DNA from: an uncultured Candidatus Saccharibacteria bacterium
GTDB taxonomy: Bacteria; Patescibacteriota; Minisyncoccia; Phycocordibacterales; Zambryskibacteraceae
DNA length: 63,895 nt
Reading direction: 5' to 3'
Assembly (NCBI GenBank): GCA_964504255.1
Contig: CAZDDU010000003.1
Span: 1-63,895 of the forward strand
The notes beneath the pieces are model-generated. The model saw nothing but the letters and a program-made list of their open reading frames with translations, ran no database searches and was not told where the DNA came from. Positions 194 through 59,704 of this stretch are shown in pieces. The position numbers were made by a program, and so were the translations under genes. Every line of letters begins with the position of its first letter. Within the stretch, counting starts at the first letter, position 1.

Positions 194-199
194 AATAGA

Positions 200-593
200 G
201 GTGTCGGATAGTTACTCTACCTTCGGGTAGGGAGGAAAGTCCGAACATTCAGTTGTGTGTGTCTGCATATGCTCATACACAACAAGAGTAGCAGGTAACT
301 CCTGTCGGGAGTAATCCTAGAGATGCGAACAGAAACGATCCGGTTAAGTCCGGCTGAAACGGCAAAATTCTTACTTGAATGCAAGGCCGTGCCCCTATGG
401 GGAGTGCCGCTAGATCTAGGTCGTGATACCTAGACCAGATAAATAGCTATCGCCAATTTTGTTCACTATAGGTGAATACAAAATTGAGCGTCCCGAACGG
501 AGTGAGGGGCAATCCTTCGACTTCGCTCAGGATACTCAGTTTTGCACCACCTTTAGTGGGCAAAACTGGTACAGAATTCGGCTTATAGACACC
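200..593 (+). ncRNA. rnpB: RNase P RNA with an expanded P19 region
   Basis: P4 signature GAGGAAAGTCCG at 232-243 and 3' ACAGAATTCGGCTTA at 571-585. P1 is GGTGTC/GACACC, P2 is GATAGTTA/TAGCTATC, and the ACAGAAAC and GAAACGGCAAA loop motifs are present. Confidence 0.93.
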
Positions 594-626
594 CAAACAC
601 CCACCAATAACTTTGGTGGGTGTTTG
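594..626 (+). terminator. Hairpin terminator after rnpB
   Basis: CAAACACCCACCA...TGGTGGGTGTTTG inverted repeat followed by a T-rich tract. Confidence 0.65.
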
Positions 627-24733: not shown

Positions 24734-25167
24734 AAAAAAGAACAACCCTTGTGGGGGTTGTGTGTGGGGCGGTGGCTCCCGCGGGCCCCGGATCGTGTCC
24801 GGGGCCCGCGGGGTAAAACTATGCCGCGTTTTCGTCTGCTCTGTGTGTTCCAACGCCGGTCCTTGCCGGGACAATGATGGTGTAAGCGGGCCCAGTTACC
24901 TTAACCTGGGTGATTCGTCGGGTAACACCTCCTTTCTTTGTAAACCCCGTGGGGTCGGCGACTGTTGGGCGGAATGCGTCCGGCCCTGCGCGAGCTCCGA
25001 GTCGAGTCTTGGCCGCCGAAGTGGTGCCAATCTGACCGGAGCGGAGTAGCCCGTCACTGTCTCTCCTAGGCTCAGTGGTCTACCGACTGGTAGCCACCTT
25101 GCTGAATTCAGGCGAGAGTGAGGGGCAGCCCCGCACGCCCTGTGGGCATGCGGGCAGGAACTAATCT
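24734..25167 (-). ncRNA. Unassigned large structured RNA candidate (~430 nt)
   Basis: GC-rich non-coding island with a consensus promoter, many strong hairpins (one of 15 bp), a C(UUCG)G loop and a terminator with a U-tract. No ORF with a canonical start looks credible. Confidence 0.65.
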
Positions 25168-30100: not shown

Positions 30101-30141
30101 TTGTGCCTCTCTGCGAGCGTTAGCTCACAAGGAGGTCTTGG

Positions 30142-30600
30142 TCAACATCGGCTCACGATGTTCCGATCGACGAGGGAGATGGCCTTGTCGTCGTTCTTCG
30201 CCGCCGCCGGGTACCCCATGGTACTTCGCGTGTTGATCGCCGCCGCCTTCTTCACCTTCCGCGAATTCATACGGGTGGACGAGGTGGGCATGGCCGCGAG
30301 ATCGCCCGAAGGGCTCACCTCCTGGTCGACGACGACCATGGTGGCGGCGAGACGGGAGACGTTGTACGTGCGATGCTCGGAGAGACCGACCATCTTGAGG
30401 TCGGGCATCGCCGGGTTGGAGGTGAGGATGAAGTTGAGGGACGAGAACTGCTCGGCGTCCGTCACCATGGCGGTGCCGGGGTCGATCGGCGTCTTGGCGT
30501 CGAAGAAGTCCTTGGACTTCCTGGTCTCGGCAGCCGCGGTCGGCGGCATGGCGAGCGAAACGGCGATCAGCGCGAGGGGCAGGAGACGCTTCAGCATCAT
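30142..30600 (-). CDS. GC-rich hypothetical secreted protein
   Basis: GGAG SD; signal peptide MMLKRLLPLALIAVSLAMPPTAAA; promoter TTTACA...TATCAT. Confidence 0.65.
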   Translation of the reverse strand: MMLKRLLPLALIAVSLAMPPTAAAETRKSKDFFDAKTPIDPGTAMVTDAEQFSSLNFILTSNPAMPDLKMVGLSEHRTYNVSRLAATMVVVDQEVSPSGDLAAMPTSSTRMNSRKVKKAAAINTRSTMGYPAAAKNDDKAISLVDRNIVSRC

Positions 30601-30705
30601 GTGCACACTCCGTGTGTGAAAGGTACAAGCAATGATCGACCTTGTTCGATCATTCTGCGAAGTATGATACCCTAATATAAATATTTGTAAAGCGAGGTAT
30701 AAAAA

Positions 30706-57055: not shown

Positions 57056-57860
57056 AGGAGCTGTCCGCTCCGCAGAGTTCCACAAGAAGAAGGAGAGAGA
57101 GAAGAAGTTTTATCAATTCCTTTTCATACTTGTATTTCTAATTGTATTAGTTGGACCTGTTTTTGTCCTTAGGAGCGAGAAGCTAAAGGTAAGCCAAGTG
57201 AGTGTGAGCGGTAATGCAGTGACACAGAGTAGCGAGGTTGAGTCATTGGTGAGAGAGAGGCTCAGTGGCTATTACCTCGGTCTAATACCTAGGTCGAGTA
57301 CGCTATTCTACCCAAAGAACGAGATAATGGATGCGCTTGATAAGCAGATACCAAGACTTGCGAGTGTGAGCGTCTCACTCGACGGATTTCGGGGAGTAAG
57401 TGTTGAGGTTATAGAGAGAGAACCTTCTGCGCTATATTGTGCTGAGTTGAACGATGGTGAGGAGTGCTACTTCTTAGATAACTCTGGGTATATATACTCT
57501 GAGGCACCTGACTTTACCACTGGTGTGTATTTAATTTATAGAAGAGAACCAAGTTTGGAGAACCCAGTAGATAAATATTTCTTGGACAAGAATGAGTTTG
57601 TTAAGGTGAACAAGTTTATAAATAGTTTGAGCAAGCTTGAGATAGAGCCTGTGGGTATTCTGTACAAGGATAGTGAGTATTTCTTAACTCAAGCAAGTGG
57701 TCCAAAGATAATGTGGAACAGTAATCAAGATTCAGACAAGCTTTTGATCGATTTGGAGTCCTTTCTCAAGGGTTCAAAGCTGAAAGCTGAGGAAATTAGC
57801 AACATGTCATATCTCGATCTTAGGTTCGACAACAAGATTTACTACAAAGCCAGGGAATAG
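57036..57860 (+). CDS. FtsQ/DivIB-like protein
   Basis: TM helix, POTRA-like segment (VSVSGN...EVIEREP) and C-terminal YLDLRFDNKIY. Confidence 0.75.
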   Translation: MKLVGSKGAVRSAEFHKKKEREKKFYQFLFILVFLIVLVGPVFVLRSEKLKVSQVSVSGNAVTQSSEVESLVRERLSGYYLGLIPRSSTLFYPKNEIMDALDKQIPRLASVSVSLDGFRGVSVEVIEREPSALYCAELNDGEECYFLDNSGYIYSEAPDFTTGVYLIYRREPSLENPVDKYFLDKNEFVKVNKFINSLSKLEIEPVGILYKDSEYFLTQASGPKIMWNSNQDSDKLLIDLESFLKGSKLKAEEISNMSYLDLRFDNKIYYKARE

Positions 57861-57868
57861 GATATTAT

Positions 57869-57897
57869 TTGACAATTTCTGAGGGGGGGTGTAGAGT
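57869..57897 (+). promoter_or_regulatory. Sigma70 promoter with a G7 tract in the spacer
   Basis: TTGACA-17-TAGAGT; the spacer contains GGGGGGG at 57883-57889. Confidence 0.7.
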
Positions 57898-57902
57898 ATT
57901 AC

Positions 57903-58241
57903 AAGAATGTTCATTCGGGTAGTTGCTAGCTCTGAGATAGATTGTTCAACAGTCCTATGGAATGTTGACGAGATATCAACGAGGTGTACAGATGACTGTA
58001 AAGCACGCAGATAGGCCAATCTGGTCCAAGCGAAAGGGTTCTCCCTAAAGTTTGTACTAGGACTAAAGGGAACCGGCCCCGGTCTCCCTCACATCGCAAA
58101 TGGTCGATACACTGCGGATCGCTAACCTTCATTTGTCTCGGGGAAATCGATACTTGAATTCAGGGCCTCCGAAAGGCGCCCAGAGCAAGCCTCCTAGCAA
58201 CTCCCCACCCCCCTTCACCCTCGACAAGTTCGAGGGTGTTT
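57903..58241 (+). ncRNA. Unassigned large structured RNA candidate (~300-340 nt)
   Basis: Ends closed by AGTTGCTAG/CTAGCAACT and CTCTG/CAGAG; internal hairpins, a GAAA tetraloop and a 7-bp loop-loop complement; own promoter and terminator. Confidence 0.6.
58215..58241 (+). terminator. Terminator with REP-like sequence
   Basis: CACCCTCGA/TCGAGGGTG stem followed by TTTT. Confidence 0.65.
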
Positions 58242-58263
58242 TCATATCTAGTACAATACACAA

Positions 58264-59217
58264 ATGAATTTCTGGAAGAATCTTAAGAGACCAATATTTG
58301 TTCTAGCACCGATGGCCGATGTTACTGACTCGGCATTTCGTGCTGTTATAGCCAGGTATGGTAAACCCGATGTTACTTGGACCGAGTTCGTCTCGGCTGA
58401 TGGTTTGGCACTTGCTCCAGAGGAGGGAAGGAAGAAGCTTTTGAAAGATCTTGAATTTACTAGCGCAGAGCGTCCTATAGTCGCACAGTTCTTCACCTCA
58501 AAACCTGAGAACATGCGTAAGGCTGCAGAGCTTGCTAAGGAGCTCGGCTTCGACGGTATAGACATCAACATGGGCTGTCCAGACAGGAGTATTGAGAAGC
58601 AGGGTGCGGGTGCAGCCATGATGAAGAACCCGAAACTCGCGAGGGAGGTGCTAAGAGCTGCTATAGAGGGCGCTGCTGGATTGCCTGTGTCTGTCAAAAC
58701 CCGTATTGGTTACAACAAGGTAGAACTTGAGGAGTGGTTGCCCGAGATACTCAAGGAGAATCCAGCTGTTGTCACTATCCATGCTCGTACTAGGAAGGAG
58801 ATGAGTAAGGTTCCTGCTAGATGGGAGTTTGTGAAGCGAGCTGTGGAGATAAGGAATGAACTTGGTTCGAACACCTTGATACTTGGTAACGGCGACGCCT
58901 TGAGTATTGAAGATGCTAGAAGGAAGTGTGAGGAGACGGGTGCAGATGGAGTAATGTTGGGTAGAGCTATTTTCGGAATGCCGTGGCTCTTTAGTGAGAA
59001 TGTGCCAACTTTAGAAGAAAAGCTTTTAGTAATGGTCGAACACACAAAGTTGTTTGAGAAGAACTTGGGCAGGGTAAAGAACTTCGCCGTGATGAAGAAA
59101 CACTACAAGGCGTATGTGAATGGCTTTGATGGAGCAGGGGATTTGAGGGGGAGATTGATGGAGGCTAGCAATGCACAAGAGATAGAGGACATTGTAGAAA
59201 ACTTTTTGTATAATTAG
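58264..59217 (+). CDS. tRNA-dihydrouridine synthase (Dus family)
   Basis: LAPMADVTD, IDINMGCP, VSVKTRIG, TIHART and GVMLGRA. Confidence 0.93.
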   Translation: MNFWKNLKRPIFVLAPMADVTDSAFRAVIARYGKPDVTWTEFVSADGLALAPEEGRKKLLKDLEFTSAERPIVAQFFTSKPENMRKAAELAKELGFDGIDINMGCPDRSIEKQGAGAAMMKNPKLAREVLRAAIEGAAGLPVSVKTRIGYNKVELEEWLPEILKENPAVVTIHARTRKEMSKVPARWEFVKRAVEIRNELGSNTLILGNGDALSIEDARRKCEETGADGVMLGRAIFGMPWLFSENVPTLEEKLLVMVEHTKLFEKNLGRVKNFAVMKKHYKAYVNGFDGAGDLRGRLMEASNAQEIEDIVENFLYN

Positions 59218-59438: not shown

Positions 59439-59507
59439 ACAACAACACCACTCTGTGGTGTTTATTTTATACTTGACAAATAATTTAAGTAGGTTTATAA
59501 TAGTATA

Positions 59508-59704
59508 CAGAAAAGTAGTATTAGAGAAGTGCCCAAAAGGCAGGACATAAGCATGGCAACAAAGCCTTAGGCCACGGTACGTGTGCGTTCGTCGTCGAGG
59601 CCCGGAATCCTCGCCGTTCAACCCATACCTCTGCCGTGGTCAGGGCTGGCCATATCCACTTACCTCTGTACACTTTCACTAGGCCCCTATAACACGGGGC
59701 CTTT
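59508..59704 (+). ncRNA. 6S-RNA-like rod-shaped RNA candidate
   Basis: Perfect TTGACA-17-TATAAT promoter (59473-59501), end-to-end nested helices with internal loops, and terminator AGGCCCC/GGGGCCT. Confidence 0.5.

What the first reader, a model, noticed from the sequence alone, without database searches (positions are those of the whole stretch)
57903..58241. Second candidate novel large structured RNA (~300 nt core), end-closed and probably pseudoknotted
Seen: a 400-bp gap between the ftsQ-like gene and dus has a consensus promoter and a terminator. The 5' and 3' ends pair (AGTTGCTAG 57921-57929 with CTAGCAACT 58194-58202, extended by GGG/CCC; CTCTG/CAGAG). Inside are AGATTG/CAATCT, TCAACA/TGTTGA (with a competing GTTGA/TCAAC), GTG-TACAG/CTGTA-CAC, GGTTCTC/GGGAACC, AGCGA/TCGCT and a GAAA-capped hairpin. 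AGTCCTA (57951-57957) is complementary to TAGGACT (58058-58064), both inside other hairpins, which suggests a kissing or pseudoknot contact. It does not show the SRP helix-8, tmRNA or group I P7 signatures. Inference: an unclassified ribozyme-like or scaffold RNA, or a large riboswitch-like attenuator for dus.
Basis: partly seen in the sequence, partly recalled or inferred. Interest (0 to 1): 0.72.

Follow-up and report, generated by a model that had tools for sequence, protein, structure and literature searches.

The report
Abundant orphan structured RNA gene cassette
The 400-base gap before the dus gene of this ultra-small (Paceibacteria/CPR) bacterium holds a real gene for a folded non-coding RNA of about 280-310 bases that matches no catalogued RNA family, gives the deepest transcript contig of this organism in four wastewater and bioreactor RNA data sets, and sits in a genomic slot whose contents differ between close relatives.

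Summary
A 403-bp ORF-poor gap between an ftsQ-like gene and dus carries a TTGACA/TAGAGT promoter, a 12-13-bp end-closing helix (P1) and an intrinsic terminator. No Rfam family matches at E<=10. It is not RNase P RNA, which lies at window 196-600, and ARAGORN finds no tmRNA.

Fourteen metatranscriptome runs from nine studies were laid on it. Each gives one stand-alone contig over roughly 57891/57930-58205/58208, with no contig over the flanking genes. The contig depth is 33-90 in the best runs, the highest of this organism's contigs in the four runs laid on the first 40 kb.

Homologues exist only in a narrow clade. L085 shares 64% identity, including a 24-nt invariant block. P1 has three compensatory double changes across three lineages and no disruptions. 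A long-range rod has partial covariation. No ORF is conserved.

The closest GTDB relative (L001) has no insert. L083 keeps the same promoter/P1/terminator frame with an unrelated interior. A strain with 9-16% diverged flanks has a 98.7% identical RNA.

Best reading: an accessory, exchangeable, trans-acting structured RNA gene of unknown function. It is not a dus riboswitch and not a housekeeping RNA.

The parts
57869..57897 (+). Promoter: TTGACA (57869-57874), 17-nt spacer, TAGAGT (57892-57897). All eight DNA runs laid lack one G of the G7 run at 57883, so the spacer is 16 nt in those strains.
   Evidence: scan; the same TTGACA..TAGAGT occurs in L085, and TTGACA-17-TACTCT in L083. for the G-run indel.
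57905..57916 (+). Small 5' leader hairpin GAAU-GUUC-AUUC. The strain variant C57916U keeps the pair as G.U. L083 has GAAGA-CAGU-UCUUC at the same place.
57917..57929 (+). P1 5' strand, GGG[U]AGUUGCUAG.
   Evidence: It pairs with 58194-58205. Across window, L085 and L083 there are 3 positions with changes on both sides, 2 wobble changes and no disruption.
57930..57983 (+). P2 irregular hairpin domain (CUC/GAG, GAUA/UAUC, UUGU/ACGA, CAACA/UGUUG; 11-nt loop containing AGUCCUA). The apical part is replaced by a GCGAAAGC hairpin in L085.
57988..58018 (+). 5' strands of the long-range rod: P3 57988-57995, 57998-57999, P4 58002-58004, P5 58006-58010, P6 58014-58018.
   Evidence: P3 has 3 compensatory changes and 2 broken pairs in L085. 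P6 has 1 compensatory change and 1 GU-to-GC change. P4 and P5 are invariant.
58021..58060 (+). P7 variable hairpin. It holds 4 of the 6 strain SNPs (58033, 58047, 58051, 58055; a fifth, 58067, lies just 3' of it) and a 28-nt tandem duplication variant.
   Evidence: variants; pairs. U58051C turns G.U into G-C.
58068..58088 (+). P8 hairpin GGGAACCG-GCCC-CGGU(C)UCCC. It is part of a 24-nt block (58068-58091) identical in L085 despite 64% overall identity.
58101..58136 (+). 3' strands of the rod: P6 58101-58105, P5 58112-58116, P4 58121-58123, 58125-58126, P3 58129-58136.
58138..58193 (+). Peripheral 3' region: a weak hairpin, the GGGCC..CCGAA..GGCGCC hairpin (58163-58180), CAGAG and a CCUCC-containing linker. 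Most of it (39 nt) is absent in L085.
58194..58205 (+). P1 3' strand, CUAGCAACUCCC. RNA contigs of the deeper runs end at 58205-58208.
58206..58245 (+). C-rich spacer (CACCCCCCUU) and intrinsic terminator (stem 58216-58238, T run). It is conserved in L085 and L083 and is not covered by any RNA contig.
58252..58257 (+). TACAAT, a -10-like hexamer 6 nt before the dus ATG (58264). It could give a leaderless dus mRNA. It is outside the RNA but bears on the leader hypothesis.
   Evidence: Read from the sequence. Conserved in L081, L083 and L085. No transcript data.

Best explanation
This is an independent gene for a stable, highly expressed, structured non-coding RNA.

Transcription (inferred from motifs): from its own sigma-70-type promoter, ending at an intrinsic terminator.

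The RNA that accumulates (shown at contig level only): about 280-310 nt, with its 3' end at the base of a covarying 12-13-bp closing helix (P1). This implies that the terminator hairpin is trimmed off.

Fold (P1 well supported, the rest partly supported):
- P1 encloses a 5' hairpin domain (P2).
- An irregular long-range rod (P3-P6) ends in a three-way junction.
- One arm of the junction is variable (P7) and one is sequence-invariant (P8).
- Dispensable peripheral hairpins follow.

Status in the genome (shown by comparison): it is not part of the core genome. It is an accessory cassette in the hypervariable ftsQ|dus slot of a narrow Paceibacteria clade, and it is exchanged by recombination inside a conserved promoter/P1/terminator frame.

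Mode of action (inferred, weakest step): it acts in trans, most likely as a protein-bound scaffold or decoy RNA. The invariant P8/junction block would be the recognition site. It does not act as a cis-regulator of dus.
For: Expression:
- At least 20 metatranscriptomes hold at least half of its sampled words.
- All 14 runs laid give one stand-alone contig inside 57891-58208 with zero depth on ftsQ and dus. Depths are 43.8, 89.6, 43.6, 32.6, 48.9 and 36.5 in runs of only 74-314 Mb.
- In the four runs also laid on window 1-40000, it is deeper than the other organism-specific contigs: 24822-25145 at 37/47/11 and 30132-30612 at 16/27/4.
- Seven deeper runs end at 58205-58208, while DNA contigs run through that point.

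Not a known family:
- No Rfam hit at E<=10.
- RNase P RNA is at 196-600.
- ARAGORN finds no tmRNA.

Homology and structure:
- The L085 interior aligns with score 171.5 against 44.8+-7.0 for shuffles, and a 24-nt block is identical.
- P1 has 3 double compensatory changes, 2 wobble changes and no disruption in three lineages.
- RNAalifold gives 84 pairs, 9 of them with compensatory change.
- The fold of the window RNA alone, tested in L085, gives 44 pairs unchanged, 18 changed but canonical (10 on both sides), 18 broken and 22 in gaps.
- All 6 strain SNPs are unpaired or pair-preserving.

Non-coding:
- The 55-aa ORF changes frame across the conserved nucleotide block in L085 and has stops in L083. 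The minus-strand ORF has a stop in L085.

Accessory and exchangeable:
- L001 (Dus 87% identical) has a 30-bp gap.
- L083 shares the frame, but its interior has no similarity (31 against 33.5+-4.6 for shuffles).
- Window against L081: RNA 1.3% diverged, flanks 8.7-16.2% diverged, Fisher p 1e-15. Against L085 the RNA (64%) is less conserved than dus (81%).
- 36 of 64 related loci have more than 60 nt in this slot, up to 3.5 kb.
Against: - Only two really divergent carriers of this cargo exist (window type and L085), so covariation outside P1 is statistically weak. About half of the changed pairs are broken, and the core alone folds only marginally better than shuffles (z -1.8).
- The expression evidence is Logan contigs without strand or true depth profiles.
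- The recurrent 5' contig start at 57930 is also seen in one DNA run (X13). It may be an assembly or polymorphism effect, so the true 5' end and any processing are unproven.
A copy elsewhere in the L001 or L083 genomes, and the presence of a canonical SRP or 6S RNA in this genome, could not be checked.
- No partner protein or target was identified, so the trans-acting scaffold/decoy mechanism is inference only.
Confidence: 0.6

Rival explanations
1. It is a cis-acting leader (riboswitch, T-box-like or attenuator) that controls dus through the terminator at 58216-58245.
For: It has the same orientation as dus and ends about 20 nt before it in a strong terminator. The spacer and terminator are well conserved in L083 and L085.
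Against: - L001 has dus 30 bp after ftsQ without any leader.
- L083 has an unrelated interior in front of the same terminator.
- RNA contigs end at 58205-58208, before the terminator hairpin.
- There is no Rfam riboswitch or T-box hit at E<=10.
- A -10-like TACAAT lies 6 nt before the dus ATG.
- No alternative antiterminator pairing is conserved.
Confidence: 0.06
2. It is a very divergent housekeeping RNA (SRP RNA, 6S RNA or tmRNA) that Rfam and ARAGORN fail to recognise in this CPR lineage.
For: - Abundance is similar to or above the other stable RNAs of the organism.
- It has an end-closing helix.
- This lineage's RNase P RNA also scores below Rfam's gathering threshold (69 against 100 bits), so divergence of housekeeping RNAs is real here.
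- The rod ending in two hairpins loosely recalls an SRP S domain (inference).
Against: - No hit at E<=10 to any SRP, 6S or tmRNA model, and no ARAGORN tmRNA.
- Read from the sequence: no GNAR-tetraloop plus AGCA helix-8 motif, no T-arm or CCA end, no tag ORF ending in hydrophobic residues.
- It is absent from the syntenic site in L001 and replaced by unrelated RNA in L083.
- It is 98.7% identical between strains whose flanks differ by 9-16%. That fits exchange of an accessory cassette better than a vertically inherited core gene.
Confidence: 0.08
3. It is a non-autonomous mobile element (MITE-like, with 12-13-bp terminal inverted repeats) that happens to be transcribed. The RNA fold would then be a by-product.
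For: - Inverted termini flank a roughly 265-bp body.
- There is presence/absence polymorphism between close relatives.
- Copies are near-identical in diverged backgrounds.
- Earlier notes of this scan report mobile hairpin repeats in Paceibacteria (leads only).
Against: - There is a single copy in the 64-kb window.
- It occupies the same site in every carrier, and I saw no target-site duplication when reading the ends.
- There is no similarity in phage, plasmid or viral collections.
- P1 mismatches in L085 and L083 are G.U on the + strand only.
- A strong promoter, 5' hairpin and terminator are conserved.
- The contig depth in metatranscriptomes is very high.
Confidence: 0.1
4. It is an mRNA for a small protein, for example the 55-aa ORF 58100-58267 that overlaps the dus start as ATGA. 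Other lineages have arginine-rich microprotein genes in the same slot.
For: - The ORF exists and is open in the same end frame in L085.
- L088 carries a short basic ORF in this slot, and earlier notes describe such operons (leads only).
Against: - There is no Shine-Dalgarno sequence before the ATG.
- The frame differs across the conserved CACTGCG.ATCGCT block between window and L085, so nucleotides are conserved and residues are not. The frame is stopped in L083.
- The ORF would run through the terminator.
- RNA contigs start about 170-200 nt upstream of the ORF and stop at 58205-58208, which is 60 nt before its stop codon.
Confidence: 0.03

Closest known systems
Orphan structured bacterial ncRNAs of unknown or emerging function (raiA motif RNA, OLE, ROOL, GOLLD)
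   Same: It is a stand-alone gene with its own promoter and terminator. It has a multi-helix fold with long-range pairings and GNRA-type loops. It is highly abundant, has no coding potential and no known function.
   Different: - It does not match any of their Rfam models at E<=10.
- It is much narrower in distribution: one small Paceibacteria clade, with two divergent lineages carrying this cargo.
- It sits in a presence/absence-polymorphic slot, and the cargo is replaced in a close relative.
Precursor stalks of stable RNAs: a helix formed by the sequences flanking the mature RNA, as in the rRNA processing stalks cut by RNase III (established knowledge)
   Same: The 5' and 3' flanks of the body form a covarying 12-13-bp helix. 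The terminator is missing from the accumulated RNA. Several low-depth RNA contigs end at 57930 and 58194-58197, which would fit a staggered cut at the top of P1.
   Different: The cargo is not rRNA. The cut is not demonstrated: the contig ends are ambiguous, and one DNA contig also starts at 57930. The deeper runs keep the P1 3' strand.
6S RNA, SRP (4.5S/7S) RNA, tmRNA and RNase P RNA (abundant housekeeping RNAs)
   Same: Comparable abundance and end-closing helix. Size is similar to large SRP RNA or tmRNA.
   Different: No model match and none of their defining motifs. It is not syntenically conserved. RNase P RNA is identified elsewhere in the window.
Miniature inverted-repeat elements and Rickettsia-type palindromic elements
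   Same: Terminal inverted repeats, patchy presence in close relatives, and near-identity across diverged backgrounds.
   Different: Single copy in the window, fixed site, own promoter and terminator, RNA-type (G.U-tolerant) covariation, and a large complex interior.

Membership tests
Bacterial RNase P RNA (RF00010/RF00011) | Match to the covariance model, including the P4 pseudoknot (GGAAAGUCC ... ACAGAA..CGGCUUA) close to the 3' end. | tested here: not met
   No hit at E<=10 on 57800-58320. The organism's RNase P RNA is at window 196-600 (69 bits, E 7e-19). The AGUCC/GGACU pairing here lies mid-molecule and is not conserved in L085.
tmRNA (RF00023; ARAGORN) | tRNA-like domain (acceptor stem with G.U, T-arm, 3' CCA) plus a tag reading frame ending in hydrophobic residues. 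| tested here: not met
   ARAGORN finds no tmRNA in the window, and there is no Rfam hit. The frame GCA AAU GGU CGA UAC ACU GCG GAU CGC UAA (58096-58125) ends in ADR and is not kept in L085.
SRP RNA (RF00169, RF01854 and relatives) | Helix 8 / domain IV: a GNAR tetraloop with the conserved symmetric loop (..CAGG..GNAR..AGCA..). | tested here: not met
   No Rfam hit at E<=10. The only CAGG..GAAA..AGCA-like stretch (58161-58188) does not form the helix-8 pairing and lies mostly within the segment that L085 lacks.
6S RNA (RF00013) | A rod of about 180-200 nt with a large central bubble flanked by closing and terminal stems. | tested here: not met
   No Rfam hit at E<=10. The consensus fold is multi-branched, with a three-way junction.
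Riboswitch / T-box / attenuator leader | Conserved association with the regulated gene, and a mutually exclusive terminator/antiterminator pairing. | tested here: not met
   dus lacks the element in L001 and in 28 of 64 related loci. The interior is swapped in L083 with the same terminator. There is no Rfam hit. Ligand response is not testable here.
Self-cleaving ribozymes (hammerhead, twister, pistol, hatchet, HDV-like, glmS) | Match to the catalytic core. | tested here: not met
   No Rfam hit at E<=10. CUGAGAU at 57932-57938 does not fit CUGANGA and reads CAGAGAU in L085. Cleavage itself is not testable here.
Structured non-coding RNA gene (generic) | A discrete transcript, no conserved ORF, and base pairs maintained by compensatory change. 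| tested here: met
   Stand-alone RNA contigs in 14 runs. ORFs are not conserved. P1 has 3 compensatory positions and no disruption. The rod is partly supported.
RNase III-processed stalk | Cuts on both strands of the stalk with a 2-nt 3' overhang. | tested here: inconclusive
   Contig starts are at 57930 in 5 RNA runs, and contig ends are at 58194-58197 in 4 low-depth runs. A DNA contig also starts at 57930, and the deeper RNA runs end at 58205-58208. Raw reads are needed.

The most novel reading that the evidence does not exclude
The ftsQ|dus junction of this Paceibacteria clade is a dedicated RNA expression slot. It has a conserved frame: promoter, small 5' hairpin, covarying closing/processing helix P1, C-rich spacer, and a terminator that abuts the dus promoter. 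Into this frame, unrelated structured 'cargo' RNAs are swapped by recombination between strains. The cargo is a multi-domain RNA of about 265 nt in the window and L085, a rod of about 130 nt in L083, and nothing in L001. The cargo RNAs would be strain-specific, very highly expressed determinants, for example for defence or for dealing with the host cell. The system would resemble a gene-cassette system for non-coding RNAs.
Probability: 0.25. Interest if true: 0.75.

Novelty: new variant of a known kind. Interest (0 to 1): 0.52.

Why it matters
CPR/Patescibacteria have tiny genomes with little spare DNA. This organism nevertheless keeps an accessory RNA gene whose transcript contig is deeper than its other contigs in four wastewater, bioreactor and related metatranscriptomes.

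If it is real, it adds a new structured-RNA family to a phylum whose RNA biology is almost unknown. It also gives a concrete, testable example of an exchangeable RNA cassette: the same frame carries different cargo in close relatives.

It also shows that public metatranscriptome assemblies can validate ncRNA candidates from uncultured bacteria.

Its narrow distribution limits comparative proof, and its function remains open.

Tried and rejected
- **Rfam.** At gathering thresholds the whole window gives only tRNAs. At E<=10 on the region there is only a chance miRNA hit. At E<=10 on the whole window, RNase P RNA appears at 196-600 and nothing on this region.
- **ARAGORN.** No tmRNA.
- **Whole-genome searches.** I could not look for SRP, 6S or tmRNA genes or for extra copies in the whole genome.
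- **Related dus loci.** nhmmer and blastn of the RNA against 80 dus loci of GTDB species genomes found nothing. Profile nhmmer and a covariance model of the core (R1) found only window, L081/L082, L086 and L085.
- **JGI metagenomes.** A scan with the invariant 21-mer found one near-identical copy (L086) and one chance hit in a GC-rich coding region.
- **Viral contigs.** Two pattern scans gave 0 and 26 matches. The 26 score as chance with R1.
- **Phage and plasmid collections.** No similarity.
- **Second protein search.** Using L085's FtsQ found no further clade members.
- **More distant FtsQ relatives.** L088-L094 carry unrelated inserts or none.
- **Target search.** Looking for the complement of the invariant block in the window gave chance level only.
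- **Literature.** One search found nothing on this RNA.
- **Runs for L083 and L085.** Their expression is untested.
- **RNase III processing.** I considered it from the contig ends and downgraded it after a DNA contig showed the same start.

Full report
**What is at the site**

The ftsQ-like ORF ends at 57860 and dus starts at 58264. Upstream lie serS and, on the other strand, dprA. The dus relatives place the organism in Patescibacteria/Paceibacteria. The 403-bp gap contains the following.
- TTGACA (57869-57874), 17 nt, then TAGAGT (57892-57897).
- A small hairpin at 57905-57916.
- GGG[U]AGUUGCUAG (57917-57929), which pairs with CUAGCAACUCCC (58194-58205).
- A C-rich spacer.
- A 9-bp terminator stem (58216-58238) followed by a T run.

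The + strand folds better than shuffles (z -3.6). The - strand gives z -1.6. The core alone is only marginal (z -1.8).

**Known families**

- Rfam release 15 gives nothing on this region, either at gathering thresholds or at E<=10.
- A scan of the whole window at E<=10 finds the organism's RNase P RNA at 196-600 (69 bits, below the gathering score of 100, E 7e-19). That settles the most obvious candidate.
- ARAGORN finds 14 tRNAs and no tmRNA.
- Reading the sequence, I found no SRP helix-8 motif, no T-arm or CCA end, and no hammerhead core.
I could not check whether canonical SRP, 6S and tmRNA genes lie elsewhere in the genome.

**Is it transcribed?**

The index of public runs lists at least 20 metatranscriptomes that hold at least half of its sampled words. 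They come from activated sludge, bioreactors and freshwater sediment.

I laid 14 runs from nine studies. Every one gives a single contig confined to the RNA, with zero depth on ftsQ and dus.

| Run | Contig | Depth |
|---|---|---|
| X16 | 57898-58205 | 44 |
| X20 | 57891-58206 | 90 |
| X25 | 57894-58205 | 16 |
| X26 | 57930-58208 | 44 |
| X27 | 57925-58208 | 49 |
| X29 | 57930-58205 | 33 |
| X30 | 57926-58205 | 37 |
| seven others | shorter contigs | lower |

I also laid four of these runs on window 1-40000.
- Only two other organism-specific contigs appear: 24822-25145 (depth 37/47/11) and 30132-30612 (16/27/4).
- The organism's own RNase P RNA is not assembled.
- The '6S-like' candidate at 59473-59704 has no contig in X16 or X20.

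In those four runs this is therefore the deepest contig of the organism. These are Logan contigs: they carry no strand and no true depth profile.

**Contig ends**

- The 3' limit at 58205-58208 recurs in seven runs of different depth, and DNA contigs run straight through it. I take it as a real RNA 3' end at the base of P1, with the terminator removed.
- The 5' limit is less clear. It lies at 57891-57898 in one study and at 57925-57936 in the others, with 57930 in five runs.
- One DNA run (X13) also has a contig starting at 57930. That start may therefore be an assembly or polymorphism effect.
- A staggered RNase III-type cut at the top of P1 (57929|57930 and about 58195|58196) would fit four low-depth contigs. 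It is not established.

**Relatives**

The 80 closest dus loci in GTDB species genomes show no similarity to the RNA. In L001, whose Dus is 87% identical, the serS-ftsQ-dus order is kept with only 30 bp between ftsQ and dus.

Searching the fast-evolving FtsQ protein gave a graded series of relatives, and I fetched their contigs.

| Locus | FtsQ identity | Slot content |
|---|---|---|
| L081/L082, and L086 from JGI (FtsQ identity not computed for L086) | 84% | Near-identical RNA |
| L083/L084 | 78% | 283-bp gap; same frame, different interior |
| L085 | 54% | Clear homologue |
| L088-L094 | 46-48% | Unrelated GC-rich inserts or none |

A second protein search found no further clade members. A JGI metagenome scan with the invariant 21-mer added only L086. 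Scans of viral contigs, phages and plasmids added nothing. The family is therefore narrow.

**Structure**

P1 is the best-supported helix. Across window, L085 and L083, three positions change on both sides (A-U/G-C, A-U/G-C, G-C/A-U) and two change through G.U. None of its 12-13 pairs in the window RNA is broken. The bulged U of the window RNA is paired to an inserted A in the other two.

RNAalifold on window, L081 and L085 gives 84 pairs, nine of them with compensatory change. The fold has these parts.
- P2 is an irregular hairpin (57930-57983) whose tip differs between lineages.
- A long-range rod is made of P3 57988-57995/58129-58136 (three compensatory changes, two broken pairs), P4 and P5 (both invariant), and P6 58014-58018/58101-58105 (one compensatory change, one GU-to-GC change).
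- The rod encloses P7 (58021-58060, variable) and P8 (58068-58088).
- P8 is part of a 24-nt block that is identical in L085.

As a less circular test, I folded the window RNA alone and scored that fold in L085. The result was 44 pairs unchanged, 18 changed but still canonical (10 on both sides), 18 broken and 22 in gaps. This is better than chance but not decisive.

Six strain SNPs were seen: 57916, 58033, 58047, 58051, 58055 and 58067. All are unpaired in this model or preserve a pair (C57916U gives G.U; U58051C gives G-C). A 28-nt tandem duplication inside P7 occurs in RNA from three studies.

The GAAA-capped hairpin and CAGAG fall in or beside a 39-nt segment that L085 lacks.

**Coding potential**

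The 55-aa ORF 58100-58267 is open in L085 too. However, it is read in a different frame across the conserved CACTGCG.ATCGCT block, so the nucleotides are conserved and the residues are not. It has stops in L083. The 68-aa minus-strand ORF has a stop in L085. There is no Shine-Dalgarno sequence before the ATG.

**Core or accessory?**

Four observations point to an accessory, exchangeable cassette.
1. The insert is absent in L001.
2. L083 shares the 3' frame, from the P1 3' strand to the dus ATG, at about 80% identity. It also shares a recognisable 5' frame (TTGACA, a small hairpin, GGGU(A/G)GUUG(C/U)U..). Its interior, a strongly folded rod (z -6.3), has no similarity to ours: local score 31 against 33.5+-4.6 for shuffles. 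L085's interior scores 171.5 against 44.8+-7.0, and the core model R1 does not hit L083.
3. Between the window and L081, serS, ftsQ and dus differ by 8.7%, 16.2% and 14.7%, mostly at third codon positions. The RNA differs at 4 of 308 positions and the spacer-terminator at 0 of 58 (Fisher p 1e-15). Against L085, however, the RNA (64%) is less conserved than dus (81%) or serS (71%). A single rate cannot explain both comparisons. Recent transfer of the cassette between strains, on top of purifying selection, explains them.
4. Among 64 related loci with ftsQ followed by dus, 28 have at most 60 nt between the genes and 36 have 61 nt to 3.5 kb. The contents I looked at are unrelated; L088, for example, carries a short basic ORF.

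Earlier notes of this scan describe similar slot contents in other genomes. I used them only as leads for the ORF test and the slot survey.

**Mechanism**

Shown:
- a discrete, abundant transcript, at contig level;
- no conserved ORF;
- a covarying closing helix;
- a conserved junction and P8 block;
- presence/absence and cargo replacement among close relatives.

Inferred:
- transcription from the predicted promoter;
- 3' trimming back to P1;
- action in trans as a protein-bound scaffold or decoy, with the invariant block as recognition site.

A hairpin that stays sequence-identical while the rest diverges to 64% suggests sequence-specific recognition, not mere folding.

A leader for dus is unlikely. 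dus lacks the element in L001 and in many relatives. The interior is swapped in L083 in front of the same terminator. The RNA contigs stop before the terminator. A -10-like TACAAT lies 6 nt before the dus ATG.

**Verdict**

This is a real RNA gene that matches no Rfam family: a new family within the loose class of orphan structured bacterial RNAs. Its function is unknown. The more interesting possibility, still only about one in four, is a conserved expression and processing frame that carries interchangeable RNA cargos.

Noticed in passing
window 196-600 (+): The organism's RNase P RNA (class A) scores 69 bits, E 7e-19, below Rfam's gathering score of 100. Default annotation would therefore miss it.
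   Followed up: no
window 24822-25145 (- strand candidate): A second stand-alone RNA contig appears in the same metatranscriptomes (depth 37, 47 and 11 in X16, X20 and X26), with small indel variants. It has no Rfam or ARAGORN hit. Another reader flagged it as tmRNA-like.
   Followed up: partly
window 30132-30612: A third abundant transcript contig (depth 16, 27 and 4) coincides almost exactly with the ORF 30142-30606 (-). That ORF encodes 154 aa with a signal-peptide-like N-terminus (MHMMLKRLLPLALIAVSLAMPPTAAA...). It is probably a very highly expressed secreted or surface protein.
   Followed up: partly
window 59473-59704: The '6S-like' RNA candidate downstream of dus has no contig in the two metatranscriptomes laid over it (X16, X20), although the RNA studied here reaches depth 44-90 in them.
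   Followed up: no
window 57880-57889: All eight DNA runs laid lack one G of the G run at 57883, including a run otherwise identical to the window. The promoter spacer is then 16 nt, not 17. The extra G may be a strain variant or an assembly error.
   Followed up: partly
window 58025-58052: A 28-nt tandem duplication of the P7 sub-hairpin, with GAAA in one copy and GGAA in the other, occurs in RNA contigs from three studies and as a loose end in one DNA run.
   Followed up: partly
window 58252-58266; also L081, L083, L085: TACAAT lies 6 nt before the dus ATG, with no Shine-Dalgarno sequence, and is conserved in the relatives. dus may be translated from a leaderless mRNA whose promoter overlaps the upstream terminator.
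   Followed up: no
L083 6884-7047: In the same frame (promoter, 5' hairpin, 17-bp P1, same terminator) this close relative carries an unrelated RNA of about 130 nt that folds as a very stable rod (z -6.3).
   Followed up: partly
L088 3482-3800, L090 3813-3949, L092 2663-3022, and 36 of 64 ftsQ-dus loci: The ftsQ|dus junction of Paceibacteria is hypervariable, from 0 to 3.5 kb. The GC-rich inserts I read are unrelated to this RNA. L088 contains a short arginine-rich ORF (MRGGWGRDPSEVRRGIDKRSIGKRT).
   Followed up: partly
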